Assembly (NCBI GenBank): GCA_003510435.1
Contig: DOMK01000001.1
Span: forward strand, 26,604-90,603
DNA: 64,000 nucleotides
Origin: Candidatus Magasanikiibacteriota bacterium
GTDB lineage: Bacteria; Patescibacteriota; Patescibacteriia; Magasanikbacterales; UBA922
Direction: 5' to 3'
Shown: in pieces, positions 6,591 through 62,572 of the stretch
How the letters are laid out: each line of letters starts with the position of its first letter
Position numbering within the stretch: the stretch's first letter is position 1
The notes under the pieces: generated by a model
The model's database searches: none
Told to the model about the DNA's origin: nothing
What the model saw: only the letters and a program-made list of their open reading frames with translations
Program-made: the position numbers and the translations under genes

Positions 6591-8198
6591 TTAGATTAAT
6601 TTGGAATTATCCCTAATTTCTTTCATAACTAATTCTGGAATGCGGTTTTCTAATAAAACTACTGAACCACTATTTTTAATATTTTTTATATAAGTTAGTA
6701 ATTTTACCGGTTCAAAAATTTCTTTAATTTCTAAACGATATTTTTGACTTAGAGACCCTTCAGTGAGAGGTTTGACAAAATCAGGCGTAATTATAACTAG
6801 CTCATCGGTACTATAAGAGATTTCTCCGCCAATTTTTTCGTGGATTTCATTACTTTTTTCTCCCAATTCTAACATGCCTCGAGTAATTACAATTCTCTTA
6901 CGTTCATTTTCAAAATTAGTAATATAATCTAAAGCCGCTTTAAAACCTTCGGGATTGGAATTATAGCTGTCATCAATAATATCACAATTGCCATATTTGA
7001 AAATATGAATAGTTTGCGGTAGATTTTTTATAACACCTTTAATCTCTTCCTCTGTCATTCCTAAATAACGAGCTACTAATGTGCATGGTAGAACATTCAT
7101 GGTATTGTGACTACCACGTAAGTTTGAGTCTATTTGAATTTCTACATTTTGACAAATCACGACGACTTTACCACCTTCAGTATTTTTTTCTATACTCTTT
7201 ACCAAGATAGTTGGTTTATGTTCTTCTTCTGTACCAAAGGTCATTACTTGACAATTTAATTCATTTAAAAATTCCCGACAATATGAATTGTCGCTATTAG
7301 TAATAGCTAAGCCATCTTTTGGTAGAGACCTGAATAATTCATATTTGGCCTTTTGGGTTTTTTTAATATTACCAAATAGCGCTATGTGCTGTTCATTGAT
7401 GGCAGTCAAGATACCAATTTTTGGTTTTACCATATCGCAAATCAATTTTATTTCTCCTTCGGCATAAGCACCCATTTCTACTATAAAAATATCTGTATTA
7501 GAAAAATTAGTTTTTAAAATAAATTTGGCTATGCCAATTTCGGTATTAACATGTTTAGGCGTACTTATAACATTAAATTTACTTTTTAAAATATGATCCA
7601 AAAAGATTTTTACTGTCGTTTTGCCATAACTGCCAGTAATACCGATTATTTTTAAATTTTTATATTGGCTAATTTTTTTTCTAGCGCGATTAATTAATAT
7701 TTTTTTTATTAAATCAGTCATTAGATTAAAAGCATAAACTATTAAACCTAAAATAAAAATTCTTGTCATCATTAATATTAATAAAGCATCCCAATCGTGT
7801 GATTTAAATAATAAACTTACTTCTAGTAAGATTGGGATTGAGATTAATAATAAAGATTTTAGAGTAATAGCTGGCTTAATAAATTTTTTTCTTTTAAATA
7901 TTTTATGTATATCATGGATGAAATTAATAGCCAAGATAGCCAAGATAACTATTTTTTGGATCTCAATGTTCAAAGGTAGAAATAAGGCGACCATTATTAA
8001 AAAGGCCCGATGGACAATGTTAAATTGAAAAGTAAAATGTTTACCTTGCTCAGTACTCAAAAAATCACGAAATCTATCCCAGCGATATTCTTTAAGTTGG
8101 AAAAAATACACAAAATAGCTATAATCCGAGATAGCTGAAAAAATCCAGAGAATAAAAATTATAGTATTAATATCAGAAAACATATTATTAATTAACAA
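6591..8198 (-). CDS. murF: UDP-MurNAc-tripeptide--D-Ala-D-Ala ligase (MurF) with ~170-aa N-terminal polytopic membrane extension
   Basis: Mur ligase P-loop IIGITGSYGKTTVK and ATP-grasp-like body (FIVEMGAYAEGEI ... ILTAINEQHIALFG). N-terminal 170 aa are hydrophobic helices. Confidence 0.75.
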   Translation of the reverse strand: MLINNMFSDINTIIFILWIFSAISDYSYFVYFFQLKEYRWDRFRDFLSTEQGKHFTFQFNIVHRAFLIMVALFLPLNIEIQKIVILAILAINFIHDIHKIFKRKKFIKPAITLKSLLLISIPILLEVSLLFKSHDWDALLILMMTRIFILGLIVYAFNLMTDLIKKILINRARKKISQYKNLKIIGITGSYGKTTVKIFLDHILKSKFNVISTPKHVNTEIGIAKFILKTNFSNTDIFIVEMGAYAEGEIKLICDMVKPKIGILTAINEQHIALFGNIKKTQKAKYELFRSLPKDGLAITNSDNSYCREFLNELNCQVMTFGTEEEHKPTILVKSIEKNTEGGKVVVICQNVEIQIDSNLRGSHNTMNVLPCTLVARYLGMTEEEIKGVIKNLPQTIHIFKYGNCDIIDDSYNSNPEGFKAALDYITNFENERKRIVITRGMLELGEKSNEIHEKIGGEISYSTDELVIITPDFVKPLTEGSLSQKYRLEIKEIFEPVKLLTYIKNIKNSGSVVLLENRIPELVMKEIRDNSKLI

Positions 8199-9012
8199 AA
8201 TTTTTAATTATTTCTAATAATTTTTCTTTTGTCTGTAAGTGTAGTCCGTGTCTAGCATTTTTAATTATTTCTAATTTTGAATTCTTGATTAGTTTGTTCA
8301 ATTTATAAGCATCAGACACTGGCAAATAACCATCCATGGTACCCCAGACAATTAAAGTCGGTACTGTAATTTTATTAGCCTCTTCTCCTCTATCTTGACG
8401 GATAATGTTTTTAAAAATTTCCCGTTTGATTCCAGATGTGTCGTGATAATCTTTGGCACCAATGGCTTTATGAAAAATATCTTCGGCCCAGAGAGAGCCT
8501 TTTTCTATCCACGGAATTTTAAAAATTAATTTACCAAATTTTGCGCCCGCGTTAAAAATTACACGTCTGAAAGTTTTCTTTGGTCGAAACACAGCCGGCG
8601 CAGTTAAAATTAATTTATCAATCATATCTGGATATTTACTAGCAAAAACTGTGGCGACTTGACCGCCGAAACTGTGACCGAGTAATACCACGTCATTCTG
8701 AGCGGAGCGGAGCGGAGTCGAAGAATCCCCTTGTTTGTACACAAAAAAATGGGATCCTTCGACTTCACTGCGGCTCACAAGCTCACCTTCGTTTCGCTCA
8801 GGATGAAGTAGTGATTCGATTTTATTTTTTACAAATTCAACATAATCCTCTACTCCCCAGACTTTATCTGGACATGGTTCATCACCAAAGCAAGGTAATT
8901 CAATAATTTGAATATCAAAATCATTACTGGCTAATTCAGCAAATTCGTTCCAAGTCGCTTTGTTTCCTCCCCAACCGGGAAGGATGATTAATTTTGATTT
9001 TAAATTATTCAT
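8188..9012 (-). CDS. alpha/beta-fold hydrolase carrying an in-frame palindromic-element insertion
   Basis: Nucleophile elbow LLGHSFGG. The 40-aa stretch LHPERNEGELVSRSEVEGSHFFVYKQGDSSTPLRSAQNDV is encoded by the repeat at 8692-8816. Confidence 0.65.
   Translation of the reverse strand: MNNLKSKLIILPGWGGNKATWNEFAELASNDFDIQIIELPCFGDEPCPDKVWGVEDYVEFVKNKIESLLHPERNEGELVSRSEVEGSHFFVYKQGDSSTPLRSAQNDVVLLGHSFGGQVATVFASKYPDMIDKLILTAPAVFRPKKTFRRVIFNAGAKFGKLIFKIPWIEKGSLWAEDIFHKAIGAKDYHDTSGIKREIFKNIIRQDRGEEANKITVPTLIVWGTMDGYLPVSDAYKLNKLIKNSKLEIIKNARHGLHLQTKEKLLEIIKNFVN
8692..8816. repeat. family-A palindromic element (GTCATYCTGAGCGGAGCGGAGCGGAGTCGAAG...CGCTCAGGATGA), inserted in frame
   Basis: Terminal inverted repeats gtcattctgagcg/cgctcaggatga and inner gtcgaagaatcccc/gggatccttcgac. 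Near-identical left half at 44340-44432. Confidence 0.7.
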
Positions 9013-12432: not shown

Positions 12433-13458
12433 TTATAAATTATTTTCTTGAATAGTTTCTAATAATTCTGGCATCATTTGATCTAGCCATTCATTATCTC
12501 CGGGCAAAAAGTCATATTTGTTGTGAGTAGTAGGATCAATCCACTTGGCATCCAGGACTTCGTTATTATTAATATTTAGTTTGCCACCAATTATTTTACA
12601 TATTATTGGCACAAGATAGACTTGATAACTAAAATTTGGAAACTTATGATTTTTGACTGCAATTTTTTGTAATTGTTTAATAATTTTTACTTTGTAGCCG
12701 ACTTCTTCTTTGGCTTCTTTTATAACCGTGCTTTCTACTGATTCGCCAAAATCACAAATGCCTCCTGGTACTTCCCACTTTTTGTGCGATTCTTTACGAT
12801 GGGGATCATTGCGAAGAGTAATTAATAATTTTTTGTCTTGAATTATCAAAGCACATGGTACAACAATATGCTTCGCGCCAAATTGATTTTGTAAATAATA
12901 TTTAATTTTTTGTAAAGCTTTACCACGATGGGAACAAGAATTTTTTTCTTGCATATCCATTTGCGCATAGGTTTTCTTTTTGGCATTGACATAAAAAATT
13001 GGATCATAAGCAAAACCATCTTTACCTGTTTCTTTTTCAGTGATTTTTCCTTCGGTTAGTCCACTAGCCAGATACACATCTTGATTGCTAGGATTATAAA
13101 GTGAACAAACAATGGCAAAAGTAGCAGTGCGATTTTTCTTTCCTTTCATTTTTTCCAAAATAATATTTCTTCTTTCAACATCATTTTTTCCAATGCGAGC
13201 GGAATATACACCCGGATAATTTTTTAAGGACTTAACAAAAATTCCCGAATCTTCACTTAGAGTAATCAGACCTGTTTTTTCACCATAATAATTAGCTTTG
13301 AGCATAGCATTTTGTTCTAGAGTAGTGCCATTTTCTTCTGGTTCTAGAATATTTTTATCCAAGTCTTTTAAACTTAAAAATTCAAATGGTAAATCACCAA
13401 GGAATTTTTTGATTTCTTTAAATTTTCCTTTATTGGTTGTGGCGATGAGAACTTTCAT
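12433..13458 (-). CDS. fusion protein: RdgB/Ham1 non-canonical NTP pyrophosphatase (N-terminal) + Nudix hydrolase (C-terminal)
   Basis: N-terminal KVLIATTNKGKFKEIKKFLG ... FAYDPIF (Ham1). C-terminal Nudix box GGICDFGESVESTVIKEAKEEVGY. Confidence 0.7.
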   Translation of the reverse strand: MKVLIATTNKGKFKEIKKFLGDLPFEFLSLKDLDKNILEPEENGTTLEQNAMLKANYYGEKTGLITLSEDSGIFVKSLKNYPGVYSARIGKNDVERRNIILEKMKGKKNRTATFAIVCSLYNPSNQDVYLASGLTEGKITEKETGKDGFAYDPIFYVNAKKKTYAQMDMQEKNSCSHRGKALQKIKYYLQNQFGAKHIVVPCALIIQDKKLLITLRNDPHRKESHKKWEVPGGICDFGESVESTVIKEAKEEVGYKVKIIKQLQKIAVKNHKFPNFSYQVYLVPIICKIIGGKLNINNNEVLDAKWIDPTTHNKYDFLPGDNEWLDQMMPELLETIQENNL

Positions 13459-13550
13459 ACACGGAAATAAGGAATTAAAGGATTATACGGATTTTTTATT
13501 ATCATATTTTTTCCGTGTGATCCTTTATCTCCGTATCTCAGTGTTATACC
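13458..13550. repeat. family-D hairpin element (ACACGGAAATAAGGA...GGATTATACGG...TCCGTGTGATCCTTTATCTCCGT)
   Basis: Internal inverted repeats. Paralogous copies at 13952-13990, 14394-14440 and 32293-32338. Confidence 0.5.
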
Positions 13551-13951
13551 AACCGTTCAATATATTTTCTAATTTTATTAGTCTTCAATTCCCCTTCTCT
13601 GTATGGGGTTAATTTTACTATTCGTGTGTTTAATCCAAATTTTGTTATAGCATTTTCTAGTTCATCAACATAAATTTTTTGATCATAACCAAGGGCAATT
13701 ACATCAGGTTTTTGATCCTGAATAACTTTATAAACATCAGTTTCATCACCTAACACTACCTCATCAATCAAATCAATATGTGTTAAAAATTCTAGACGTT
13801 CTTGTTCACTATGTAGAGATCCATATTCTTTTATTCTTTCTACATTAATATCGCGCGCTACGACAGCAATTAATTTGTCACCATATTCTCTAGCTTCCTT
13901 AAACATATGGATGTGACCACCATGGATAATATCAAATGTGCCAAAGATCAT
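13544..13951 (-). CDS. cytidylyltransferase-family nucleotidyltransferase (TagD/RfaE-domain-II-like)
   Basis: FGTFDIIHGGHIHMFKEAREYGDKLIAVVARD. Start moved to the Met of MIFGTFD because the upstream 20 codons are repeat-encoded. Confidence 0.55.
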   Translation of the reverse strand: MIFGTFDIIHGGHIHMFKEAREYGDKLIAVVARDINVERIKEYGSLHSEQERLEFLTHIDLIDEVVLGDETDVYKVIQDQKPDVIALGYDQKIYVDELENAITKFGLNTRIVKLTPYREGELKTNKIRKYIERLV

Positions 13952-13988
13952 AACACGGAGATGAGGAGAAGACGGATTATACGGAACA

Positions 13989-14393
13989 TTATTTTTTTTC
14001 ATATCGGTCATATTCTCTATAGTTTACAATTCTTTTTATTTCTAATTTTGGATTACCAAAGTTTATTAATAAACCAACTTCCAGCTTACTTGCCTTGAGA
14101 TATGAAACTGTTTGAGTCTGAAAGATTTTTGGTAATTCACCACTAACAGCTTTTAATTCTATTATTATTTTATTATTTACTAACAAGTCTACTCTAAAAG
14201 TTCCTATTAATTTATTTTTGTAATACACGTCATATTCAAATTCAGATTCTATATCAAATTTATTTTCTATTAAATCATTTATCATGGCTTGATGATAAAT
14301 ATACTCTTTAAAACCAGGCCCAAGTGTTTTGTGTATTTCTATCGCTATACCTATAATTTTTTGTGTTAGTTCCCACTCCTTTTTTATTATCAT
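13989..14393 (-). CDS. GxxExxY-family protein (family typically encoded inside rRNA intervening sequences)
   Basis: LGPGFKEYIYHQAM = G-x-x-E-x-x-Y signature; 134 aa. Bracketed by family-D inverted repeats. Confidence 0.65.
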   Translation of the reverse strand: MIIKKEWELTQKIIGIAIEIHKTLGPGFKEYIYHQAMINDLIENKFDIESEFEYDVYYKNKLIGTFRVDLLVNNKIIIELKAVSGELPKIFQTQTVSYLKASKLEVGLLINFGNPKLEIKRIVNYREYDRYEKK

Positions 14394-14440
14394 ATTTTTT
14401 CCGTGTAATTCTTTATTTCCGTGTCTCAGTGTTTATACCA
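14394..14440. repeat. family-D repeat arm (TTTTTTCCGTGTAATTCTTTATTTCCGTGTCTCAGTGTT)
   Basis: Inverted copy of ACACGGAGATGAGGAGAAGACGGATTATACGG at 13955-13988. Near-identical to 13498-13550. Confidence 0.5.
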
Positions 14441-16538
14441 AACCAATTTGTGGAGCAATTTTTTTTAATGCCTCAATAGCTAGTTGTAAAAATTCGTCCA
14501 AGCTCAAGCCAAGTTTTTCACATTCCATTATTATATCCCGATTACAGCCAGCGGCAAACTTTTTATCTTTAAATTTTTTCTTTAATGAGCTTAGTTCTAG
14601 ACTAGCAATTTTGTCTGGACGCATGCGAGCAGCTGCATAGACTAAACCGGTGGTGGTCTCAGCACAGGCCAAAGCATGTTCAATCATTTTAGTTCTAGTT
14701 TTATCTTGCAAATTTGCACAATTAAAACCATAGCCGTGAGAAACAACGACATTTATAAAATCATCAGCAAATCCAGCTTCCTTTAAAAGTTCTGGGGCTT
14801 TTGTCAAATGCTGAGTGGTATCGTTTTCTGTCAATTCCCAATCAATATCATGTAAAAGACCAAGCATTCCCCATGTTTCAACATCCTGACCTAGTTTTTC
14901 AGCAAGCTTTTTCATGATTGCTTCTGATTCTTGGTAATGGTTTAGATTGGCTTCTTTATTATTATATTTTTGTACTAATTGCCAGGCTTCTCCCCGATTC
15001 ATTGGTAGGGGTGATAAGCCTCCATCATTTTTTTGATTAGTGATATTAATCATTGGTTGATTGTTCTGTTCAACTGGTTTCATTAGCGGAAATAGCGTCA
15101 CTTCTCGTAAAGTGTGGGAACCAGTAATGAGCGCAGCAAAACGATCAATCCCAATGCCAGTGCCTGTGGCTGGAGGCATGCCATGTTCTAGAGCCTCGAC
15201 ATAGTCCCAATCGTTATTCATGGCCTCTTCATCACCTTCATCTTTATTTTTTACTTGTTCTTCAAATCTGGCTCGTTGATCAACTGGGTCATTTAATTCA
15301 GTATATGAATTGCTCAATTCAAAACCGTTAACAATTAGTTGAAACATCTCAGTATAGCGTGGATCTTCGGCTTTTTTTGCTAATGGTTTTAATTCAATTG
15401 GATAATTTAAAACAAAAGTTGGTTGAATTAATTTTGGTCGGGTTGATTGTTTATATAATTCGTCAATCAATTTACCACGTTCAGTAATATCTTCTGGATC
15501 ATAGCCCTTAGTTTTCATTTCTTTGGCTAGTGTTTCTACGTCAGTAAAATTATTAATATCAATACCAGAATGTTCCAAAACTGCATCATGAAAAGAAATT
15601 CGTTTGTATGGTCCGGCAAAATTAATTTTTTGATTATCAACTTCAACTTCCAATTTACCCACTGATTTTTCTACCACAAATGGAATTAATTCTTCATGCA
15701 TTTTCATATTATCTTCATAATCAGCATAAGCCCAATAATATTCTATCATGGTAAATTCTGGATTATGTTGGTGATCAACGCCTTCATTTCTAAAAGCCCG
15801 ACCCATTTCAAAGGTGCGTTCAAATCCTCCAACTAATAATCTTTTTTGCCATAGCTCGCCCATGCAAATACGCAAATGAACGGGTAAATTATAAGCATTG
15901 AGATGGGTGTCAAAAGTTTTGGCCATAGCGCCAGAAGCAATTGTTTCTAAGACTGGAGTTTCTACCTCAACAAAATCTTTGCTAAACATAAACTCGCGCA
16001 TATAACGCAAAATTCGTCCGCGAGCAAGAATTTTCTCTTTTTCTTCTGGATTAACAAGAAAATCAATATATCTTTTGCGATAGCGAGCTTCTTCATCTTG
16101 TAGACCATGAAATTTGTCTGGTAAAGGTAAGAGTGATTTGGCGAGCAATGTCCATTTTTTAACCAAAACAGATGGTTCACCTTTGTGAGTGGTAAATTTT
16201 TCGCCCTCTACAGAAATAATATCGCCAATATCAATTTTTTTGATAAATAATTTGTAATCAGTTTCATCAATTTCTCCTTGTTTAAAAGCGACTTGCATTT
16301 GGCCAGAATTGTCTTGCAAATGACAAAAAGTCAGTTTGCCCATGTCTCGTTTTGTCATGATTCTGCCAGCTGAAGCAATAGATTCACTTTCATTTTTTGT
16401 CAGAGCTTGTTTTAGGGTGTGCTCGCGTTTTACTCTGGCTGGATATGGGTTTATACCAACTTCTCTTAGTTCTTCTAGTTTTTTTAGACGAATGGCACGT
16501 TCGTCATTTATGTTTAATTCTGGAGAAATACTATCCAT
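14433..16538 (-). CDS. lysS: lysyl-tRNA synthetase (class II) fused to a ~210-aa C-terminal HD-superfamily phosphohydrolase-like domain
   Basis: LysS body through GIGIDRFAALITGSHTLREVTLFP. Then an extension with H...LLHDIDWE...VSHGYG...D (HD-domain metal-ligand pattern). Confidence 0.85.
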   Translation of the reverse strand: MDSISPELNINDERAIRLKKLEELREVGINPYPARVKREHTLKQALTKNESESIASAGRIMTKRDMGKLTFCHLQDNSGQMQVAFKQGEIDETDYKLFIKKIDIGDIISVEGEKFTTHKGEPSVLVKKWTLLAKSLLPLPDKFHGLQDEEARYRKRYIDFLVNPEEKEKILARGRILRYMREFMFSKDFVEVETPVLETIASGAMAKTFDTHLNAYNLPVHLRICMGELWQKRLLVGGFERTFEMGRAFRNEGVDHQHNPEFTMIEYYWAYADYEDNMKMHEELIPFVVEKSVGKLEVEVDNQKINFAGPYKRISFHDAVLEHSGIDINNFTDVETLAKEMKTKGYDPEDITERGKLIDELYKQSTRPKLIQPTFVLNYPIELKPLAKKAEDPRYTEMFQLIVNGFELSNSYTELNDPVDQRARFEEQVKNKDEGDEEAMNNDWDYVEALEHGMPPATGTGIGIDRFAALITGSHTLREVTLFPLMKPVEQNNQPMINITNQKNDGGLSPLPMNRGEAWQLVQKYNNKEANLNHYQESEAIMKKLAEKLGQDVETWGMLGLLHDIDWELTENDTTQHLTKAPELLKEAGFADDFINVVVSHGYGFNCANLQDKTRTKMIEHALACAETTTGLVYAAARMRPDKIASLELSSLKKKFKDKKFAAGCNRDIIMECEKLGLSLDEFLQLAIEALKKIAPQIGLV

Positions 16539-21878: not shown

Positions 21879-23543
21879 TTATACAATTTTCTCCATTTTA
21901 ACTTCCCCACTTTTTCTATCCTTTACTTCCACACTCCCCTGTTCCAAAGTTTTTGGACTAACAATATATCGAGTAGGAATGCCAATCAAATCACTGTCAG
22001 CAAATTTTTCCCCAGCGCGAAGATCCCGATCGTCATATAAAACTTCTTTACCTTCACTAATTAATTTATTATATAATTCATCAGCTTTTTTTATTCCTTC
22101 TTCATCTTTGCAGAGTGAGATCAAATGAATTTGATAAGGCGCCACTGTCTCTGGCCAAATAATGCCTTTGTCATCATAAAATTTTTCAACAATCGTGGCG
22201 AGAGTCCGATCAACCCCAATTCCATAACAACCCATATAATATGGTTTTTCTTTGCCATCCTTATCTGTAAAATTGGCCTTCATACGACTACTATAGTGTT
22301 CACCGAGCTGAAAAATATTTCCTACTTCAATGCCTCGTCCTTCTTTTAAGACACTACCATTTTCGCTTTCGAATCCGTCCTGAGCCATAACAATATCACC
22401 TTCTTTGTGGGGAGTAAAATCTCTACCAATATTAATATTTAATAAATCACCATATTTTTTATTTGCTCCACCATAGGCATTTTTTATGGTTCTTAATGAA
22501 TCATCAGCTACAATAAAAACTTTTTTATCAATATTAACTGGTGAAATAAAGCCTGGTTCACTACCAATAGCGCGAACCTCATCTTCAGTAGCCATACGAA
22601 GTTCATTGGCTTCGCTCAAATGCTTTAATTTTATTTCATTCACATCCAAATCACCACGAATAATGGCTAAAATATATTTGCCTTTGTCATCAACAAAAAG
22701 TACATCTTTAATTTGTTGCCATAGTGGTAAATGGTGATACTCAACTCCGTCTTCCATTGAATTACCACGCTTGGCTTCAACTTCTTGCAAATCTTTTTCT
22801 TCCTCGTCAATATTTTTATTAATTTTTTTAAATTTGGCTACGTCTTCGTGAGCAGCATAGGTTCCATCTTCAGAAATCAGGAAACGACTTTCACCAGAAT
22901 CACATTCTACTACAAATTCATGACTGTATTCACCACCAATATAGCCATTATCGGCTTCTACTACCACGGTTTTTAAACCCATACGTTCAAATATCTTGGT
23001 ATAGGTATGCCACATTTTTTCATATTCAATTTTAAAATCTTCTTCATCAGCATGAAAAGAATAAGCATCCTTCATAAGGAATTCGCGAACTCTAAGTAAA
23101 CCACCGCGGACTCTCATTTCATCTCTAAATTTTTGAGAAAATTGATAGATGTTAAAAGGTAAATCTTTGTAACTCATGTTGTACTTTCGTACTAGATCAA
23201 CCATCATTTCTTCGGCTGTACCACCGAGAGCAAAACTACTACCATTTCTATCTTTTATAGTCATAAGTTCAAAACCAGCTGATTCTGTTCGACTGGTTTC
23301 TTTCCATAATTCTAATGGGTGTAAAACAGGGGTAATAATTTGCAAGGCACCAGCTTTGTTCATTTCTTCTTCAATAATTTTTATTACCCTATCTCTTACG
23401 CGTATTCCTAAGGGTAAAAAATAATATCGACCAGCAGTTGATTCTCTGATAAATCCAGCTTGATATAAATATTTATGACTGATCATTTTAATATCAGACG
23501 AAATCTCTTTTACTGTTTTTGTAAATAATTTTGATTGGCGCAT
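21879..23543 (-). CDS. proS: prolyl-tRNA synthetase
   Basis: Class II motifs and ProRS body; C-terminal anticodon-binding/zinc-type region (YMGCYGIGVDRTLA). Confidence 0.85.
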   Translation of the reverse strand: MRQSKLFTKTVKEISSDIKMISHKYLYQAGFIRESTAGRYYFLPLGIRVRDRVIKIIEEEMNKAGALQIITPVLHPLELWKETSRTESAGFELMTIKDRNGSSFALGGTAEEMMVDLVRKYNMSYKDLPFNIYQFSQKFRDEMRVRGGLLRVREFLMKDAYSFHADEEDFKIEYEKMWHTYTKIFERMGLKTVVVEADNGYIGGEYSHEFVVECDSGESRFLISEDGTYAAHEDVAKFKKINKNIDEEEKDLQEVEAKRGNSMEDGVEYHHLPLWQQIKDVLFVDDKGKYILAIIRGDLDVNEIKLKHLSEANELRMATEDEVRAIGSEPGFISPVNIDKKVFIVADDSLRTIKNAYGGANKKYGDLLNINIGRDFTPHKEGDIVMAQDGFESENGSVLKEGRGIEVGNIFQLGEHYSSRMKANFTDKDGKEKPYYMGCYGIGVDRTLATIVEKFYDDKGIIWPETVAPYQIHLISLCKDEEGIKKADELYNKLISEGKEVLYDDRDLRAGEKFADSDLIGIPTRYIVSPKTLEQGSVEVKDRKSGEVKMEKIV

Positions 23544-23607
23544 AGATTCATGACACTGATGACGCGGATTTTATGCGGATGACGCAGATCACGCGGATTG
23601 TTTAAAT

Positions 23608-24930: not shown

Positions 24931-27900
24931 TCACAATTGTCTAAATTCACAAATTTCCTTAAAATCACAATACTGACAAACATGTTTGTTTGGTGTGGCT
25001 GTAAAATCATTGGATTTAATTTGAGTAATTGTCTTAAGAATTTTTTCTTGTAATTTTTCTAGATCTTTAGCTTCACCAATAAAGGACGTTTTTATATTAT
25101 CATTGACATAATAAAAAGTTAGCTGGCCCACGGGACCAATGTTTCTATATTCAGGTAGAGTCTGAGTCGCGATTTGATAAATCAAAAGTTGTTGTTTGTC
25201 CTCGGTTGTTAAAGTTTCTTTGGACTTGCCAGTTTTGTAATCAATAATTTCTAAACTACCATCCGCTACTTTGTCTATTCTGTCAATTCTACCATGTACA
25301 ATGTAGTTACCTACTTTAACCTTGAACCACCCTTCCAATGATACAGGTACAGTCCACTTGCCATCTTCTGAAGAATAAAATATTTTCAAAATTTCTTTGC
25401 CTTTGGCATAGTATTTTTCCCTTTGTTCACGACTATTGTACCAGTCAGAAGCCCAATTTTTTTCATACATTTCCAATAATTCTTTTTCACTCGGAACTAT
25501 TATCTCCCCAGTATCTGATTTTTTTGTTTCTACTGGTAGACCAAACAAAGACGCTTGCTTGACACTATTTAATTCTTGAATTTTATTATAAAAATCCTGC
25601 AAAGTATTGTGAATGGTATTTCCAAAGCTAAAACTGGCACTGCCTTTCATGGGGATTTTTAAAACATGCGCTAGTTTGTATTGATAAGGACAACGTTCGT
25701 AGGAGCTGATTTGGGAGAAAGAGAACTTGTTGGGTGTTTCGTAAATTAACTCCTCGCCTACTAGAGGAAGTTTAGGAGAAGTCATTTTTAAATCCAAAAT
25801 TTGTTTTTTATCCAGACCCCCTCCAACTCCCCCTGATAGGGGGAGGGCATCAGACAGTTCTGCTAAAAATCTACTAATTTTCTTTTTTCTTGTTCCACCA
25901 TAATCTTCGGCACTGGTTAAAAATAGTTTTTCTTTTGCTCTTGTACAGGCAACATAAAATAAGCGTCGCTCTTCGGAATAATGAAAATCATCACTAGGTA
26001 AATTATCCTTGACTAGCTCATCGGGCAATTCCAAATTACCGCCTTTTTTTCTGGTAGGAAATCTTTCTTCAACTAAATTTACTACAAAAACATATTTATA
26101 TTCCAAACCTTTTGCCCCATGGACTGTAATAATATTAACTGAATCTGGTGTATCTTCTGGCTGGTAAATTTTTCCACCGTCACCGGATTCAATAATATTA
26201 TTAAAATGTTCTACAAATTCTAAGACTTTGCAATCGGGTGTAATTTGTTCAAAAGTTTTAATTAAATCAAAAAGTTGTCTAAGGTAATTTATTTGCCGAA
26301 TAATTTCTCTGTCGCCATTGGTTTCGCCATGAGTCAAGTAAGTTAAATATCCACTATTTTCTAAAAAATTGTATAAAACAGCGGTTGGTCTTTCATATCG
26401 CGCCTGCTTCATACCACTGTGAATAGTTTCTAAAATTTTACTAGCAATTTTTTGTCCGCTAGCAGAAATGTCAAATTCCACTCCTCGTTTTAAAATTTCG
26501 TAATAACTAATAGATTTCTGTTTGGCTCTAGCGGTAATTTTTTGCATGTCATTTTCATCCATTGCCCAGGCTGGCATACGTAAAAGTCGATACATGGCTC
26601 GGTCATCATAAACATGGGTAAGTAATTGAAAAAAAGCTAGGCAATTTAATACAATAGCCTGTCTATAAAGGCCAGATGAGGCCAAATACTCATATGGAAT
26701 ATTAGTCTGCTCTAAAGCGTGAATAAAGGGCTCTACGTGCGAGTTAGCCCTGACTAAAATGGCAAAATCATCCCATGATATTGATTTCACTGATTGTAAT
26801 TTGATTTCACTGATTTTTTTGATTACTTCCTGAACTTCATCATCTAAAGTTTGACAATGTATGTGTTCAATTTCAGTTTTGATGGTATTTTTAGCAATTA
26901 GTTTCTTATCAATTTTTAATTTTACTTCAAGGCGATCAGGATTATTATTTTGAATACTTTTATAACTTAGATCTAAAATTTCTTGACCAGAACGATAATT
27001 TTCATTCAAAACAATTTCTTTGGCATTTTTAAAATCTTCTTTAAAATGCATAATGACTGAAACGTTTGATCCACGGAAACTATAAATACTTTGGTCATCA
27101 TCCCCTACTACTGTTAGTTGACAATTCTGAGGCAAAGCCGAAGAATCCCGCTGTTTATCGCTTGAACCACAGGATCCTTCATCACTTCGTTCTTCAGGAT
27201 TAGCTAATAATTTTATTAATTGATATTGTGCCCAATTTACATCTTGAAATTCATCTACCAAAATATAGGTGAATCTGTCTTGCAAAGTTTTTAAAATATT
27301 TGGTCGATCTTTTAATAATTTGACAGTATAAAAAATCAAATCCCCAAAATCTAAATAACCATTATCCAAAAGTAATTGATTATAAGTATGATAAGCATTG
27401 GCGAGCTCTGTTTGACGATTTTTATCTTGGATATTAACTTCGTCTTTATCCATTTTTACATTTTCCACATATTCCAAATATTCAGTGGTAGAAACTAATT
27501 CATCTTTGGCTTTGGAAAAATGATTCAAAAGCGAATGAATCATAGACATGGGACTACCAAGCGGACGGTAATAATCTAGATTGAAATCGTACAAATGTTT
27601 TTTTACCAAGAGCCAAGCATCAGTGTCAGTAAGAAGTTTGAAACGTGATGGCAAACCAATTTCCAAACCATATTCCTCAAGAATTTTTTGACAAAAAGCA
27701 TGAAAAGTAGAGATTTGTAAATCTGTGTATCCAATATCCAAAATTTCATCCACTCTTTCTACCATTTCGCCAGCGGCTTTTTCTGTAAAAGTTAAGGCCA
27801 AAATATTTTCTGGCTTGGCTAATTTTTGATCAACCAAATAAGCAATCTTTTGGGTGATTACTGTGGTTTTGCCTGTACCTGCTCCGGCCACGATTAAAAG

Positions 27901-27960
27901 TGGACCAGTGGTATATTCTATGGCTTGTTTTTGTTGATTGTTTAGATTATATTCAGACAT
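24931..27960 (-). CDS. UvrD/PcrA-type SF1 helicase fused to a C-terminal RecB/Cas4-like PD-(D/E)xK nuclease with Cys cluster (AddA-like)
   Basis: Walker A AGAGTGKTTV, helicase motifs, C-terminal GRIDRIDKVADGSLEIIDYKTGKS + CPYQY ... CQYCDFKEIC. Two in-frame repeat insertions (27135-27200; 25816-25850). Confidence 0.8.
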   Translation of the reverse strand: MSEYNLNNQQKQAIEYTTGPLLIVAGAGTGKTTVITQKIAYLVDQKLAKPENILALTFTEKAAGEMVERVDEILDIGYTDLQISTFHAFCQKILEEYGLEIGLPSRFKLLTDTDAWLLVKKHLYDFNLDYYRPLGSPMSMIHSLLNHFSKAKDELVSTTEYLEYVENVKMDKDEVNIQDKNRQTELANAYHTYNQLLLDNGYLDFGDLIFYTVKLLKDRPNILKTLQDRFTYILVDEFQDVNWAQYQLIKLLANPEERSDEGSCGSSDKQRDSSALPQNCQLTVVGDDDQSIYSFRGSNVSVIMHFKEDFKNAKEIVLNENYRSGQEILDLSYKSIQNNNPDRLEVKLKIDKKLIAKNTIKTEIEHIHCQTLDDEVQEVIKKISEIKLQSVKSISWDDFAILVRANSHVEPFIHALEQTNIPYEYLASSGLYRQAIVLNCLAFFQLLTHVYDDRAMYRLLRMPAWAMDENDMQKITARAKQKSISYYEILKRGVEFDISASGQKIASKILETIHSGMKQARYERPTAVLYNFLENSGYLTYLTHGETNGDREIIRQINYLRQLFDLIKTFEQITPDCKVLEFVEHFNNIIESGDGGKIYQPEDTPDSVNIITVHGAKGLEYKYVFVVNLVEERFPTRKKGGNLELPDELVKDNLPSDDFHYSEERRLFYVACTRAKEKLFLTSAEDYGGTRKKKISRFLAELSDALPLSGGVGGGLDKKQILDLKMTSPKLPLVGEELIYETPNKFSFSQISSYERCPYQYKLAHVLKIPMKGSASFSFGNTIHNTLQDFYNKIQELNSVKQASLFGLPVETKKSDTGEIIVPSEKELLEMYEKNWASDWYNSREQREKYYAKGKEILKIFYSSEDGKWTVPVSLEGWFKVKVGNYIVHGRIDRIDKVADGSLEIIDYKTGKSKETLTTEDKQQLLIYQIATQTLPEYRNIGPVGQLTFYYVNDNIKTSFIGEAKDLEKLQEKILKTITQIKSNDFTATPNKHVCQYCDFKEICEFRQL

Positions 27961-29926: not shown

Positions 29927-29962
29927 GTTTTGTATGCTTAAGAATTAATCCTCCTTATTTAT

Positions 29963-30409: not shown

Positions 30410-30437
30410 TTTTTTTAGATTAATAATTATAGATTAT

Positions 30438-32257: not shown

Positions 32258-32292
32258 TCAATAAAAAAACACATACTAATTAGTATGTGTTT
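32258..32292 (-). terminator. atp-operon intrinsic terminator (AAACACATACTAATTAGTATGTGTTT + T-run)
   Basis: Perfect 11-bp stem. The minus-strand read is followed by TTTTTTT. Confidence 0.55.
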
Positions 32293-32338
32293 GGAATTTC
32301 CGTGTAATCTTATAATTCCGTATCTCCGTGTTTTATTT
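32293..32338. repeat. family-D repeat fragment (TTCCGTGTAATCTTATAATTCCGTATCTCCGTGTTTT)
   Basis: Matches the 13498-13550 / 14394-14440 consensus. Confidence 0.45.
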
Positions 32339-43991: not shown

Positions 43992-44732
43992 CTACTTACT
44001 GATTACTATTACAAACTCCCCTTTTTCTGAAATATTCATCGCCAATATTTCTTTAATTGTCCCGCGATAAATTGTTTCAAATTTTTTAGTTAATTCACGA
44101 CACACACACATTTGTCTGTCTTCTTCTAAAACTTCAGCCAATTCTCCTAAACATTTTTTTATTCTGTGATTTGATTCATAAAATGCGACTGTGTATTCTG
44201 CCTTCGCCACATCAGCAAAAAAAGTTTTACGACCTTTTTTGTGTGGCGGAAAACCCATGAATACAAATTTGTCGGTTGGAAAGCCTGAAATACTTAAAGC
44301 CGTTATTACTGCACTTGGTCCTGGAATTGGCTCTACTGTGTCATCCTGAGCGGAGCGGAGCGGAGTCGAAGGATCCCCTTCTTCAACAGGGGGATATTTC
44401 GACTTCGCCCTCCGGGCTTCGCTCAATATGACGTTTATGAGTTGGTTTCCTGGATCTGATATACCTGGCGTACCAGCATCAGTTACTAATGCCAAATTTT
44501 TACCTTGTTCCAACAATTCCTTGATCTCACGAACTTTCTTTTCTTCACTATGTTGATGATAAGAAATAGTTTTGGTTTTAATCTCAAAATGATTCAACAA
44601 ATTTAGTGTTACTCTAGTATCTTCACACAAAATAAAATCCACACTTTTTAATATTTTAAGTGCACGTAAAGTGATGTCGCCTAGATTACCAATTGGCGTG
44701 GCGACTATGTATAATTTACCTGTATTTTCCAT
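43992..44732 (-). CDS. rsmI: 16S rRNA (cytidine1402-2'-O)-methyltransferase RsmI, carrying an in-frame family-A element
   Basis: LYIVATPIGNLGDITLRALKIL ... ILCEDTRVT. Inserted RRAKSKYPPVEEGDPSTPLRSAQDDTVEPIPGPS is encoded by the repeat. Confidence 0.85.
   Translation of the reverse strand: MENTGKLYIVATPIGNLGDITLRALKILKSVDFILCEDTRVTLNLLNHFEIKTKTISYHQHSEEKKVREIKELLEQGKNLALVTDAGTPGISDPGNQLINVILSEARRAKSKYPPVEEGDPSTPLRSAQDDTVEPIPGPSAVITALSISGFPTDKFVFMGFPPHKKGRKTFFADVAKAEYTVAFYESNHRIKKCLGELAEVLEEDRQMCVCRELTKKFETIYRGTIKEILAMNISEKGEFVIVISK
44340..44432. repeat. family-A palindromic element inside rsmI
   Basis: gtcatcctgagcggagcggagcggagtcgaaggatcccc...gggggatatttcgacttcgccctccgggcttcgctcaatatgac. 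Confidence 0.7.
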
Positions 44733-45418: not shown

Positions 45419-45724
45419 TTATAATTTAGTAAGTTCATCAATGTTTAAATCTAGTTCTTTTGTATTTGCGTCAGAAAAATCAGTCGGATTCTCAATTTCT
45501 GTCATCACATTTTCTGGAGTAATATTATGAATAACTATATCATCTACTCGGATATTAGGTGATCTATGACAATGTCCAGTACAAGTACAAATATCTAAAC
45601 AGATTTTATCATTACATTCACCTTTTTGCAAACCAGTCTCCATTTCAATTTTGTGCAATATTGCATCCGAACCTTTGGCAGAACAAGTTATACCTTTGCA
45701 GATTTTTATTTGTTTCATAATCAT
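45419..45724 (-). CDS. thioredoxin-like [2Fe-2S] ferredoxin (NuoE-like fold)
   Basis: ICKGITCSAKGSDAI ... CLDICTCTGHC spacing. Start moved to an internal Met because the upstream 39 codons are encoded by repeat 45721-45835. Confidence 0.5.
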   Translation of the reverse strand: MIMKQIKICKGITCSAKGSDAILHKIEMETGLQKGECNDKICLDICTCTGHCHRSPNIRVDDIVIHNITPENVMTEIENPTDFSDANTKELDLNIDELTKL

Positions 45725-45835
45725 TCCGAGTGTAGCGAGGAATCCCTTTTCCTTGGGGTTAACATCGGTTTTATTTAATGCTTTTTTTAATGAATCAAAA
45801 AGGGATCCCTCACCCTTCGGGATTCGGGATGACGG
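45721..45835. repeat. family-B palindromic element (diverged copy)
   Basis: tcattccgagtgtagcgaggaatcccttttccttggggttaacatcgg...aaaagggatccctcacccttcgggattcgggatga. Confidence 0.6.
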
Positions 45836-45837
45836 TG

Positions 45838-46524
45838 TCAACCATAATACTTCTCCATATAAAATCTAATCAATTCTTCAATTTCTGGAATGGCTTCGGG
45901 ATCACCCACACCAACTTTTAATTTCTTTTGCACATCTTCCAAATTTTGCGCGCCTTCTAGTACCGCTTCTTCTATATCATGATCAGTAATATTTAGAACT
46001 TTATCAATAATTTTACTTCCAGCTGTCACAATTCTACCGTGTTGTCCAGTTTTACGAAAATAATCATTAACTGCGGCTTGTAAAGCTTTGTCACCCAAGA
46101 CTGAACAGTGTACTTTTCTATCTGGTAAGCCACCAAGCCGAGCTAAAATATCTTGTGGTTTTATTTTTAAAGCGTCTTCGAGTTTCATTCCACCCTTTTC
46201 AACGATCATTTCTGATAAAACCGAAGTGGAGGCAATGGCTGAACCACAACCAAAAGTGCGCCAGCGACAGTCCTTTATTTTTTCACTTTTTTCATCTACT
46301 AAAATCCACAGTACCATTTCATCACCACAAGCTGGCGAACCTACGCGTCCCATTCCATCATATTTAAACTTTTCTTCCTCGCCCTGTTTCATAAAATTTC
46401 GCGGATTAAAAAAATGATCCTTAACAATGTCAGAATACAACCAACCAGAACCATCATTACTGCGGATATCTACCGGTTTAGTTAAATTCTTAGTTTTGGT
46501 TACTTTTTTAATTATTTTTTTCAT
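45838..46524 (-). CDS. NifU/IscU-family Fe-S cluster assembly scaffold protein
   Basis: GSPACGDEMVLWI ... FGCGSAIASTS (three scaffold cysteines) plus a C-terminal extension. Confidence 0.75.
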   Translation of the reverse strand: MKKIIKKVTKTKNLTKPVDIRSNDGSGWLYSDIVKDHFFNPRNFMKQGEEEKFKYDGMGRVGSPACGDEMVLWILVDEKSEKIKDCRWRTFGCGSAIASTSVLSEMIVEKGGMKLEDALKIKPQDILARLGGLPDRKVHCSVLGDKALQAAVNDYFRKTGQHGRIVTAGSKIIDKVLNITDHDIEEAVLEGAQNLEDVQKKLKVGVGDPEAIPEIEELIRFYMEKYYG

Positions 46525-61411: not shown

Positions 61412-62572
61412 TTATTTTTTTATTATTTTATACACCCCTGCCTTTTTCCCAGAAATTAATACTGAGAAATTTTGTTCTAATATAAATTTATCAGTAAAGT
61501 CTTTTAATAAATCTAAAAATAATTCTCTCTGCCCCAACAATACAACCGCCACGCCACCTGGTTTTAAAACTCTAAAAAATGATTGAAGCATCTGGGTGTA
61601 AAATATATTTAATTCACTCTCGCTCTTTTTATTAAAAATCCCCCACGGTGGATCAGTCACAATTTTATCAATTGAATTATTAGCAATACTGGGCAAAACC
61701 AAAGCATCACCATTATATACTTCAATTTTCAAATTCATCCTTTGGACATTAGTTTGCAAATAATTAACTAGTTTTTTATCATTGTCCGTGGCAATCACGC
61801 GCGTATACTTATTTATTTTTACCCGCTCAATCGGAATCGCACCCGAGCCAACAAACGGATCCAAAAAAACATCAGTCTTATTCATGTCTGACAATTGACA
61901 CAAAATATTTGTCACTTCGGGACGGAGTTCACCTTGTTGAAGACTCTTGGCTGAATCATGGTTGTGAGTAATCCGCATACCAAAAAATCCCCTGCCTTCA
62001 CTCCGCAATAATATCCAAAATTCAATATCAGGTTTTTTTCGATTAGTTCTATATTTGGTAAAGTATTTTATTTTTTCTTCCAATTTTATTAAAAGCGTAT
62101 TGTCCACGGCTGACAATTGATTTTCTTTGGAAGTAATAATGCGAAAAGTTTTTTGTCTCACTGACAAAACCGGAATATTAAGCTTGGCATTATTCACCAA
62201 TTCATTAAGCATTAAATCTAAGGATAAATTTTTGTCAGAAAATTCTTTTATGAGAATAAAAGTATTATTTACAAACCGTAATTCTTTTACTTTGTTTACA
62301 TCTGTCGTAGTAGTATAAACAACTAACCCGTCCAAAAGTAAAACAATCTTGGTTTTATCCAGAGATTTAATTAGAAAATCTTTGACGGCATTTTCAAAAC
62401 CGCTTACAAATGTTGAATAATAGATGTACATAATAAGGAATAAGGAGAAAGGAATAAAAAAATATAATAAACTCTGTTTGTTCTGTTTGTTCTGTTTGTT
62501 CTGTTTGTTCTGTTTGTTCTGTTTGTTCTGTTTGTTCTGTTTGTTCTGTTTGTTCTGTTGTAAAATTAACAA
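61412..62572 (-). CDS. class I SAM-dependent RNA methyltransferase (DPPW amino-methyltransferase motif; THUMP-like N-terminal region) with (QNK)9 N-terminal repeat
   Basis: FLDPFVGSGAIPIE (motif I), IVTDPPWG (motif IV). True start may be the ATG at 62431 downstream of the repeat. Confidence 0.6.
   Translation of the reverse strand: MLILQQNKQNKQNKQNKQNKQNKQNKQNKQNKQSLLYFFIPFSLFLIMYIYYSTFVSGFENAVKDFLIKSLDKTKIVLLLDGLVVYTTTTDVNKVKELRFVNNTFILIKEFSDKNLSLDLMLNELVNNAKLNIPVLSVRQKTFRIITSKENQLSAVDNTLLIKLEEKIKYFTKYRTNRKKPDIEFWILLRSEGRGFFGMRITHNHDSAKSLQQGELRPEVTNILCQLSDMNKTDVFLDPFVGSGAIPIERVKINKYTRVIATDNDKKLVNYLQTNVQRMNLKIEVYNGDALVLPSIANNSIDKIVTDPPWGIFNKKSESELNIFYTQMLQSFFRVLKPGGVAVVLLGQRELFLDLLKDFTDKFILEQNFSVLISGKKAGVYKIIKK
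62474..62560. repeat. perfect tandem repeat (CTGTTTGTT)x~9.5
   Basis: Read directly. In frame it encodes QNKQNK... at the 5' end of the methyltransferase ORF. Confidence 0.9.

What the first reader, a model, noticed from the sequence alone, without database searches (positions are those of the whole stretch)
13458..14440. GxxExxY ORF bracketed by family-D inverted repeats, with an ORF-less copy of the same hairpin 450 bp away
GxxExxY proteins, like four-helix-bundle proteins, are classically IVS-encoded. The arms ACACGGAGATGAGGAGAAGACGGATTATACGG (13955-13988) and its inverted partner (14394-14440) bracket the ORF. A near-identical ~50-nt segment recurs at 13498-13550 with no ORF, and again at 32293-32338. 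The left arm and the 13458 copy overlap or encode the ends of the cytidylyltransferase gene. This is a second, sequence-distinct IVS-like cassette family in the same window.
Basis: partly seen in the sequence, partly recalled or inferred. Interest (0 to 1): 0.55.

Follow-up and report, generated by a model that had tools for sequence, protein, structure and literature searches.

The report
Hairpin-flanked mobile nuclease gene cassette
A small nuclease gene, bracketed by inverted repeats, sits exactly between two housekeeping genes of a groundwater Magasanikbacteria (CPR) genome, next to a decayed copy that lost its gene; comparison with relatives shows it behaves as a mobile cassette of a widespread kind I found no paper describing.

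Summary
All genes here are on the minus strand. A GxxExxY/PDDEXK_3 gene (13989-14393) is bracketed by 33-nt imperfect inverted arms (14400-14433 and 13953-13985). These arms fill the whole gap between the lysS-HD stop codon and the cytidylyltransferase start codon.

450 bp downstream, 13459-13544 holds the same arms around a 20-nt loop that keeps the first 14 nt of the ORF. It is a strong hairpin (z -6). 32298-32332 is a left arm on its own.

Evidence from relatives:
- An 83%-identical ORF occupies the site of the ORF-less hairpin.
- Another relative has an empty lysS/cytidylyltransferase junction.
- One genome carries two 95%-identical copies whose similarity starts and stops exactly at the arm tips.
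- In 88 cassettes from many phyla, most flanks are inverted arrays of a short motif, with the variable base mirrored in both arms.
- The upstream gene is co-oriented in 84/88.
- dN/dS is 0.05-0.16.

So this is a promoter-less, inverted-repeat-bounded mobile cassette plus its decayed derivatives. It is IVS-like in architecture but none of the sampled copies lies in rRNA.

Not shown: RNA processing at the stem, or that the nuclease drives mobility. Arm mismatches carry no RNA wobble signature.

The parts
14400..14433 (-). Left (5') arm of the ORF-bearing cassette. Sense strand: AACACTGAGACACGGAAATAAAGAATTACACGGA, with three copies of an ACAC(G/T)GA-type motif. It begins on the last A of the lysS-HD stop codon.
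13989..14393 (-). GxxExxY / PDDEXK_3 ORF, 134 aa. G27-x-x-E30-x-x-Y33 and D69, E79, K81 are invariant in 34 homologues.
13953..13985 (-). Right (3') arm of the ORF-bearing cassette. Sense strand: TCCGTATAATCCGTCTTCTCCTCATCTCCGTGT. It ends 1 nt before the cytidylyltransferase ATG (13951).
   Evidence: It is 32/33 identical to the right arm at the same site in L006.
13512..13544 (-). Left arm of the ORF-less hairpin. It starts on the last A of the cytidylyltransferase stop codon.
13492..13511 (-). Loop of the ORF-less hairpin. It holds AAAAAATATGATAATAAAAAA, identical over 21 nt to the start region of the GxxExxY ORF, and so looks like a deletion scar.
   Evidence: (repeats D4/D5)
13459..13491 (-). 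Right arm of the ORF-less hairpin. It ends directly at the HAM1-NUDIX ATG (13458). It is orthologous to the right arm of the intact cassette at this site in L007.
13455..13505 (-). 16-codon remnant ORF (MIIKNPYNPLIPYFRV*). It runs from the retained GxxExxY start codon through the right arm, and its TGA overlaps the HAM1 ATG (ATGA).
32298..32332 (-). Solo left arm (AACACGGAGATACGGAATTATAAGATTACACGGAAA) immediately after the atpC stop codon. There is no ORF and no right arm.
32263..32292 (-). Terminator-like hairpin plus T-run that follows the solo arm.
13544..13951 (-). Host cytidylyltransferase-like gene, lying between the two cassette sites.
14433..16538 (-). Host lysine-tRNA ligase with an extra C-terminal HD domain; the upstream neighbour.
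12433..13458 (-). Host HAM1-NUDIX fusion gene; the downstream neighbour of the ORF-less hairpin.

Best explanation
This is a small mobile gene cassette. A GxxExxY PD-(D/E)XK nuclease gene is bounded by terminal inverted repeats of about 33 nt, each built from two to four copies of a short motif. Here the motif is ACACGGA on the 5' side and TCCGTGT on the 3' side.

Shown:
- The cassette sits exactly in the stop/start junction between co-directional host genes, in their orientation.
- It is copied, lost and replaced as a unit bounded by the arm tips.
- 13459-13544 is a copy that lost its ORF by internal deletion; it keeps the first 14 nt of the ORF.
- 32298-32332 is a solo left arm.

Inferred:
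- The cassette has no promoter of its own and is transcribed by read-through from the upstream gene.
- In the polycistronic RNA the two arms pair into a long stem. The stem closes off the insert and brings the upstream stop codon next to the downstream start codon.
- This makes the insertion tolerable in one of two ways. It may be cut out by RNase III, as for rRNA intervening sequences and Correia elements. Or ribosomes terminating inside the arms may open the stem and expose the next start codon. The second route fits because this genome does not use Shine-Dalgarno sites.
- The nuclease, whose catalytic residues are intact and under purifying selection, makes the DNA break that starts copying of the cassette into new or ORF-less sites (homing or gene-conversion type spread).
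For: Anatomy:
- The arms fill the whole intergenic gaps, and the stop and start codons touch the arm tips.
- In the CPR clade the upstream stop lies at or inside the left arm, and the next ATG is within 6 nt of the right-arm end, in 17 of 19 cassettes.

Mobility:
- In L007, an 83%-identical ORF with 33-nt arms pairing at 29 of 33 positions sits at the cytidylyltransferase/HAM1 junction. That is exactly where the window has the ORF-less hairpin.
- L007 keeps only a ~22-nt right-arm remnant at the lysS junction.
- L063 has an empty lysS junction: TAG-ACTTTT-ATG.
- L063 and L064 are two copies in one contig, 95% identical in protein. Their similarity begins at ACACAGATTA and ends at TAATCTGTGT, and the flanks are unrelated.
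- Cassette and host phylogenies disagree. L009 has host genes 91-96% identical to the window's but a GxxExxY protein only 76% identical, with arms switched from ACGGA/TCCGT to ACAGA/TCTGT. The distant L006 and L007 have 83%-identical proteins.
- Several Magasanikbacteria assemblies carry 2-4 copies on different contigs.

Generality:
- Up/downstream flanks are complementary well beyond shuffles for most of 88 cassettes.
- The variable base of the terminal motif is complementary between the arms in 29 of 35 cassettes, using four pair types. Shuffled pairings give a mean of 13 and a maximum of 24 in 10,000 trials.
- The upstream gene is co-oriented in 84 of 88, against a background of 0.80 (p 2.5e-5).

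Functionality of the ORF:
- dN/dS is 0.05-0.16.
- E30, D69, E79 and K81 are invariant.

Hairpin stability: z -6.1 for the ORF-less copy, -10 for L007 and -12 for L063.

Other points:
- Only 5 of 65 genes have a Shine-Dalgarno-like motif.
- The remnant mini-ORF ends in an ATGA overlap with HAM1.
Against: - No transcript or cleavage data exist for this element.
- Arm mismatches show no RNA signature: 34 sense G:U, 39 antisense G:U and 110 transversions.
- Both strands of the hairpin fold equally well. For the window, L007 and L009 the antisense duplex is the more stable one. The complementarity could therefore be kept at the DNA level.
- The arms of the window's ORF-bearing copy pair poorly, at 25 of 35 positions.
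- No target-site duplication is visible, so cut-and-paste transposition is not supported, and the insertion chemistry is unknown.
- No RNase III gene was seen among the window ORFs I scanned. The rest of the genome was not available.
- Long vertical retention under strong purifying selection in reduced genomes fits a host-beneficial or addictive gene as well as a selfish one.
- The related sequences in the covariation and co-orientation counts are not phylogenetically independent.
Confidence: 0.65

Rival explanations
1. The arms work at the DNA level only. They are arrays of binding sites (terminal inverted repeats with sub-repeats, as at Tn7 or Mu ends) for the GxxExxY protein, which acts as the element's own recombinase or nuclease. 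Any RNA stem is a by-product.
For: - Each arm is a tandem array of a motif of about 9 nt (GATTACACNGA type) that is conserved in form across phyla.
- The arrays expand to many tandem copies in metagenome contigs.
- There is no G:U bias on either strand, and transversions dominate the mismatches.
- Both strands fold equally well.
- The site-1 right arm is 32/33 identical between the window and L006 although synonymous sites in the ORF are saturated.
- The cassette ends are exchanged or homogenised separately from the middle of the ORF.
Against: - There is no target-site duplication.
- A 130-aa PD-(D/E)XK protein has no precedent that I know of as a sole transposase.
- The strong bias to sit co-oriented directly after a host gene, and the exact abutment to stop and start codons, point to a transcript-level constraint as well.
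Confidence: 0.3
2. It is an ordinary, vertically inherited host gene. Its flanking hairpins are host mRNA processing, stability or attenuation elements, and neither is mobile.
For: - The cassette is at the same lysS/cytidylyltransferase junction in the window, L006, L009 and L066.
- The ORF is under strong purifying selection.
- The window holds several other intergenic hairpin families.
Against: - The insert is at alternative sites in syntenic genomes (L007, L063), and L063 has an empty site.
- Within one genome there is a duplicate with unrelated flanks.
- Cassette and host divergence disagree.
- Assemblies carry 2-4 dispersed copies.
- The same intergenic site holds different hairpin families in L006, L009 and L066.
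Confidence: 0.05
3. The nuclease is kept because it serves or addicts the host (a defence, repair or toxin-like function). The inverted repeats merely mark how it arrived.
For: - dN/dS is 0.05-0.16 over comparisons with saturated synonymous sites.
- The gene is retained in very small CPR genomes.
- The family is very large: 12,100 clusters at 50% identity with E <= 0.001.
Against: - No match to PADLOC defence models or to PHROGs, and no relative in viral contigs.
- There is no partner gene. The ORF is repeatedly lost, leaving hairpins or solo arms, which argues against strong dependence.
Confidence: 0.15

Closest known systems
Intervening sequences (IVS) of bacterial 23S rRNA genes. Some carry an ORF (the 23S_rRNA_IVP / S23p four-helix-bundle family). 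They are excised by RNase III without religation (background as summarised in PMC11270868).
   Same: - A short insert closed by a long stem formed from its inverted ends.
- Some inserts carry one small ORF and some none.
- Sporadic presence among relatives.
- Transcribed as part of the host transcript.
   Different: - Here the host transcript is a protein-coding operon, not rRNA, and no rRNA is in the window.
- The ORF is a PD-(D/E)XK nuclease, not the four-helix-bundle protein.
- RNase III cutting is not shown.
Correia repeat-enclosed elements and other bacterial MITEs (ERIC, RUP, BOX) (PMC2649163, PMC2229807, PMC3184786).
   Same: - Short elements bounded by inverted repeats in intergenic DNA and co-transcribed with neighbours.
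- Their hairpins can be bound or cut by RNase III.
- They are thought to be deletion derivatives of coding elements. This fits the 86-nt ORF-less copy at 13459-13544.
   Different: - No target-site duplication was seen.
- The presumed parent carries a PD-(D/E)XK nuclease rather than a DDE transposase.
- Only 2 copies plus 1 partial copy of this arm family are visible in 64 kb.
Free-standing homing endonuclease genes, such as the GIY-YIG and HNH genes between conserved genes in T4-like phages, and the PD-(D/E)XK homing endonuclease I-Ssp6803I (both recalled from my own knowledge).
   Same: - A single small nuclease gene inserted between conserved genes.
- Presence/absence among close relatives.
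- Mosaic divergence around the insert.
   Different: - Homing genes are not normally bounded by long inverted repeats.
- The insertion sites here are diverse.

Membership tests
GxxExxY protein family (NCBIfam TIGR04256 / Pfam PF13366 PDDEXK_3) | Profile score above the curated cut-off over the full length | tested here: met
   TIGR04256: 131 bits against a cut-off of 35. PF13366: 122.9 bits against 22. The match covers residues 8-123.
GxxExxY protein family (NCBIfam TIGR04256 / Pfam PF13366 PDDEXK_3) | G-x-x-E-x-x-Y motif and PD-(D/E)XK catalytic D...E-x-K | tested here: met
GxxExxY protein family (NCBIfam TIGR04256 / Pfam PF13366 PDDEXK_3) | Nuclease activity | not testable with these tools
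   No biochemical data were found. The family is listed as function unknown in PMC3424549.
rRNA intervening sequence (IVS) | Located inside a 23S (or 16S) rRNA gene | tested here: not met
   There is no Rfam hit in the window. The insert lies between protein-coding genes. No rRNA was found near the 16 related cassettes with large gaps.
rRNA intervening sequence (IVS) | Ends pair into an extended stem that closes off the insert | tested here: met
rRNA intervening sequence (IVS) | Excision by RNase III without religation | not testable with these tools
   This needs transcript end-mapping or an in vitro cleavage assay.
MITE / Correia-like element (applies to 13459-13544) | Short non-coding element with terminal inverted repeats, derived from a coding parent by internal deletion | tested here: met
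   It is 86 nt long with 33-nt arms. It keeps 21 nt identical to the ORF start region. It is orthologous to an intact cassette in L007.
MITE / Correia-like element (applies to 13459-13544) | Target-site duplication | tested here: not met
   None is visible at the L063/L064 boundaries or in the filled-versus-empty comparison.
MITE / Correia-like element (applies to 13459-13544) | Many dispersed copies in one genome | tested here: inconclusive
   The 64-kb window has two hairpin-forming copies and one solo arm of this arm family, plus solo arms of other variants. The rest of the genome was not available.
Free-standing homing endonuclease gene | Nuclease gene between conserved genes, with presence/absence among relatives | tested here: met
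Free-standing homing endonuclease gene | The enzyme cleaves the empty allele, and flanking sequence is co-converted | tested here: inconclusive
   Cleavage is not testable here. The cassette plus cytidylyltransferase stretch is 78% identical to L009, against 85-87% for the immediately adjacent blocks; a more distant block is also about 79%. Identity along the stretch is mosaic. This is suggestive only.
Insertion sequence / transposon | Encodes a recognised transposase (DDE, HUH, serine or tyrosine type) | tested here: not met
   The only ORF is PDDEXK_3.

The most novel reading that the evidence does not exclude
GxxExxY genes as a whole form a large class of minimal mobile elements that I found no paper describing. 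The family has at least 12,100 clusters at 50% identity, across many bacterial phyla. Each element is one PD-(D/E)XK nuclease gene plus terminal inverted arrays of a short motif. The elements insert at stop/start junctions downstream of host genes, ride on host transcription, and use their paired ends as an RNA 'zipper' that keeps the host operon working. ORF-bearing rRNA intervening sequences would then be the same kind of element landed in rRNA, and many intergenic hairpins in CPR genomes would be their decayed remains.
Probability: 0.35. Interest if true: 0.75.

Novelty: new variant of a known kind. Interest (0 to 1): 0.6.

Why it matters
- GxxExxY/PDDEXK_3 is a very large protein family with no assigned function. 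Full-text searches found no paper on its biology.
- These proteins come as inverted-repeat-bounded units. The units sit co-oriented right after host genes, move as a whole and decay to bare hairpins. This gives the family a concrete, testable role as the nuclease of a minimal mobile element.
- It also links three things usually treated separately: ORF-bearing rRNA intervening sequences, MITE-like intergenic hairpins, and free-standing homing nuclease genes.
- It explains part of the unexpectedly repeat-rich intergenic DNA of very small CPR genomes.
- It flags a source of annotation errors: host genes that end or start inside the arms, such as the 155-aa cytidylyltransferase call and lysS tails encoded by arm sequence.

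Tried and rejected
- A metagenome scan with a left-arm pattern found nothing.
- The right-arm pattern found 50 contigs, but most are unrelated arrays of TCCGTGTAATCC-type 9-mers from many phyla. Only 6 carry a PDDEXK_3 ORF on the (short) contig.
- Rfam gave no family in the window, and no rRNA near 16 related cassettes.
- The promoter and terminator consensus scan of 13300-14600 found nothing beyond chance.
- PADLOC, PHROGs and viral contigs gave no hit, so a defence or phage origin was not pursued.
- I tested for RNA-level selection in two ways. Comparing sense and antisense duplex energy gave only a weak overall bias (56 vs 31, p 0.014), and it is reversed in the window's own clade. Counting mismatch types gave 34 sense G:U against 39 antisense G:U. 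I therefore do not claim an RNA structure on covariation grounds.
- No target-site duplication was found.
- No RNase III gene was found among the window ORFs scanned.
- Chance or assembly artefact is rejected: the same cassette is present in contigs from several independent samples (JGI, ENA, Logan), five of them shown.
Full report
**What is in the sequence.** The window has 34% G+C and nearly all genes are on the minus strand. It matches contigs from groundwater metagenomes, and the protein is named as Candidatus Magasanikbacteria, a CPR/Patescibacteria lineage.

Read on the minus strand, the locus runs in this order:
- lysine-tRNA ligase with an extra C-terminal HD domain (16538..14433);
- a 33-nt arm (14433-14400);
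- a 134-aa ORF (14393..13989);
- a second arm (13985-13953);
- a cytidylyltransferase-like gene whose homology-supported start is ATG 13951 (13951..13544);
- an 86-nt hairpin (13544-13459);
- a HAM1-NUDIX fusion gene starting at 13458.

The ORF matches PF13366 PDDEXK_3 (E 1.2e-35) and TIGR04256 GxxExxY (E 2.5e-38). It carries the GxxExxY motif and an invariant D69...E79-x-K81.

**Check of the observation.**
- The arms of the ORF-bearing copy are real but imperfect: 25 of 35 aligned positions pair. Joined by a GAAA loop they fold at -20 kcal/mol, z -3.7. The long-range stem also appears in the MFE of the full 501-nt RNA.
- The ORF-less copy is a much better hairpin: 27 base pairs in an interrupted stem, -29.7 kcal/mol, z -6.1.
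- Its left arm and loop (13492-13545) are 93% identical to 14380-14433. The loop keeps AAAAAATATGATAATAAAAAA, the start region of the GxxExxY ORF, at 21 of 21 positions.
- A 23-mer from this stretch occurs twice in the window against 0 expected.
- The third site is a left arm only. It sits directly after the atpC stop codon (32298-32332) and is followed by a terminator-like hairpin.

**Comparative evidence that the unit is mobile.** Four lines of evidence come from close homologues of the ORF in syntenic contigs.
- Alternative sites. In L006, L009 and L066 the cassette is at the same lysS/cytidylyltransferase junction as in the window. In L007 an 83%-identical ORF lies at the next junction, cytidylyltransferase/HAM1. 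That is where the window has its ORF-less hairpin. The L007 arms are 33 nt and pair at 29 of 33 positions. The right arm there resembles the window's ORF-less right arm, so the window hairpin is the decayed orthologue of that cassette.
- Remnant and empty sites. L007 keeps only about 22 nt of a right arm at the lysS junction, and its lysS now ends (..KKSV*) inside that remnant. L063 has the cassette at the second site and an empty first site, TAG-ACTTTT-ATG.
- A duplicate within one genome. L063 and L064 are two copies on one contig, 95% identical in protein. Their nucleotide similarity begins at ACACAGATTA, the outer tip of the left arm. It ends at TAATCTGTGT, just before the downstream ATG. 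The flanks are unrelated and there is no target-site duplication.
- Discordant divergence. L009 is the closest genome: lysS 96%, HAM1 91% and serS 95% amino-acid identity, and the adjacent flanks are 85-87% identical in nucleotides. Yet its GxxExxY protein is only 76% identical, and its arms have ACAGA/TCTGT where the window has ACGGA/TCCGT. The much more distant L006 and L007 (HAM1 47-52%) have 83%-identical GxxExxY proteins.

Two further observations fit this picture. Identity along the cassette is mosaic, and the ends have a different history from the middle of the ORF. The cytidylyltransferase/HAM1 junction is occupied by other hairpin families in L006, L009 and L066.

**Generality.** A scan of one genome per species with a profile of 34 homologues returned 80 loci from many phyla. 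Several Magasanikbacteria assemblies have 2-4 copies on different contigs.
- In most of the 88 non-redundant cassettes, the 70 nt before the start and the 70 nt after the stop are complementary well beyond shuffles.
- The flanks are arrays of a short motif: ACACNGATT type on the 5' side and AATCNGTGT type on the 3' side. The variant differs between lineages but is mirrored in the two arms.
- I located the outermost motif on each side independently. The variable base was complementary in 29 of 35 cassettes, using four pair types. Shuffled pairings gave a mean of 13 and a maximum of 24 in 10,000 trials. The sequences are related to each other, so this is not a clean probability.
- The stop codon of many homologues lies inside the right arm (..KSV*).
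- The gene upstream of the cassette is co-oriented in 84 of 88 cases, against 0.80 for other adjacent pairs in the same loci (p 2.5e-5). The gap to it is usually only 20-90 nt.
- In the CPR clade the upstream stop lies at or inside the left arm, and the next ATG is within 6 nt of the right-arm tip, in 17 of 19 cases.
- The ORF is under purifying selection, with dN/dS 0.05-0.16.
- The family is very large: 12,100 cluster representatives at E <= 0.001.
- Arms without an ORF are common, both in related loci and in the window.

**How it most likely works.**

Shown: an arm-ORF-arm unit sits exactly in stop/start junctions of co-directional genes. It is copied and lost as a unit and decays to ORF-less hairpins and solo arms.

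Inferred:
- The cassette has no promoter and depends on read-through. This would explain the orientation bias and why a consensus scan shows nothing special.
- In the transcript the arms form a stem that juxtaposes the upstream stop and the downstream start.
- Two ways of making the insert harmless are compatible with the anatomy. One is RNase III excision, as for rRNA intervening sequences and Correia elements (PMC11270868, PMC2649163). The other is ribosome-driven opening of the stem.
- The second is attractive for three reasons. Only 5 of 65 genes have a Shine-Dalgarno-like motif, so start sites probably need to be unstructured. Stop codons sit inside the arms. And the remnant 16-codon ORF of the hairpin ends in an ATGA overlap with HAM1.
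- The step from nuclease to mobility (a break at an empty or ORF-less site, repaired from a filled copy) is inference only. It is supported indirectly by the intact catalytic residues, the mosaic ends, and the lower identity of the cytidylyltransferase gene caught between the two sites.

**What speaks against the RNA reading.**
- Among 183 mismatched arm positions in 41 well-paired cassettes, 34 would be G:U in the sense RNA, 39 in the antisense RNA, and 110 are transversions.
- The hairpin folds as well on the other strand.
- In the window's own clade the antisense duplex is the more stable one.

The complementarity may therefore be kept at the DNA level, for example as protein-binding terminal repeats or by conversion between arms. 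I keep this as the main rival for the role of the arms.

**Comparison with known systems.** The architecture is that of an ORF-bearing rRNA intervening sequence, but the defining location in rRNA is not met. The ORF-less copy fits a MITE in every respect tested except target-site duplication. The ORF-bearing copy resembles a free-standing homing nuclease gene, except for its long inverted ends. Full-text searches found no paper describing GxxExxY biology or these flanks. Pfam's source paper lists the family as function unknown. I therefore rate it a new variant of a known kind.

**Limits.**
- Only 64 kb of the genome was visible, and no expression data were available.
- The counts over related cassettes are not phylogenetically corrected.

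Noticed in passing
window 1021-1389 (+), flanks about 975-1020 and 1393-1450: A 122-aa 23S_rRNA_IVP (four-helix-bundle) ORF (Pfam E 1.2e-21). It is one of the few plus-strand genes. It is bracketed by its own inverted ACAC-rich and GTGT-rich arms (AACACGAGACATAAAACACATATCACATAACACGAGACA ... GTGTTGTGTGGTTTGTGGATTGTGTTATGTGATGTGTCG). No rRNA is nearby.
   Followed up: partly
window 47930-48274 (-) and 41482-41652 (-); repeat 41513-41756 / 48069-48312: A small GIY-YIG ORF (114 aa) is bracketed by GAGAGATCTTTCTTA / TAAGAAAGATCTCTC arms. A 75%-identical 244-nt copy holds only a truncated 56-aa ORF. This is a third hairpin-flanked nuclease cassette family with a decayed copy.
   Followed up: partly
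window 43903-43945 (-), 29755-29790 (-), 23540-23560 (-): Solo right arms of other GxxExxY-type variants (TAATCAGTGTAATCATTTCTAATCTGTGAAATCAATGTT and TTCAGTTTAAATCAGTTTAAATCAATGC). Each ends a few bases before the ATG of the next gene. The same arrangement is seen in L082 5119-5155 and in the L007 lysS junction.
   Followed up: partly
window 26787-26814 (-): A cluster of the same arm motif (AATCAGTGAAATCAAATTACAATCAGTGAAATCAAT) lies inside the 1009-aa ORF 24931..27960.
   Followed up: no
window 32773-32853, 37414-37494, 45733-45813: Three copies of an 81-nt hairpin-forming repeat (AAGCGAGAGATCCCTTTTC...GGAAAGGGATTCCTC). The first two (95% identical) lie in the gaps between ATP synthase genes; the third (64% identical) lies inside ORF 45419..45841.
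   Followed up: no
window 8692-8735 and 44340-44383: A 44-nt repeat (GTCATTCTGAGCGGAGCGGAGCGGAGTCGAAGAATCCCC, 93% identical between copies) lies inside two unrelated ORFs: 8188..9012 (hydrolase-like) and 43992..44732 (TP_methylase). A related TCATTCCGAGCGAGC...CGAGGAATC hairpin fills the cytidylyltransferase/HAM1 gap in L006.
   Followed up: no
window 14433-15062 (-): The lysine-tRNA ligase has an extra C-terminal HD/HDIG domain of about 200 aa. It is absent from the otherwise 96%-identical L009 protein and from L006 and L007. It ends exactly at the cassette's left arm. Its last 12 nt (GGTTTGGTATAA) nearly repeat the end of the cytidylyltransferase gene (GGTTGGTATAA).
   Followed up: partly
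whole window: Only 5 of 65 ORFs have a Shine-Dalgarno-like motif upstream of the start, so translation starts appear to be Shine-Dalgarno-independent in this genome.
   Followed up: partly
window about 29860-30410 (-): Three tiny cysteine-rich ORFs, for example MNCAKCEVELNEENTCCDEETSCKACCECKEEGKEESCCGDGGCGCNCQ and MKNKNLTDGGGCGGGCGCN, lie in the 719-nt gap upstream of the EamA-like gene.
   Followed up: no
window 62464-62568: A tandem array of a 9-nt unit (TCTGTTTGT), about 11 copies, lies at the 5' end of ORF 61412..62572.
   Followed up: no
L019 1-163, L049 11340-11475, L024 4633-4717, L043: Metagenome contigs from other organisms end in, or contain, long tandem arrays of TCCGTGTAATCC-type units (26-nt period). 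The arm motif can therefore expand into minisatellite-like arrays.
   Followed up: no
representative search, (e.g. P0122-P0125): Many GxxExxY family members of about 250-280 aa contain two tandem GxxExxY domains.
   Followed up: no
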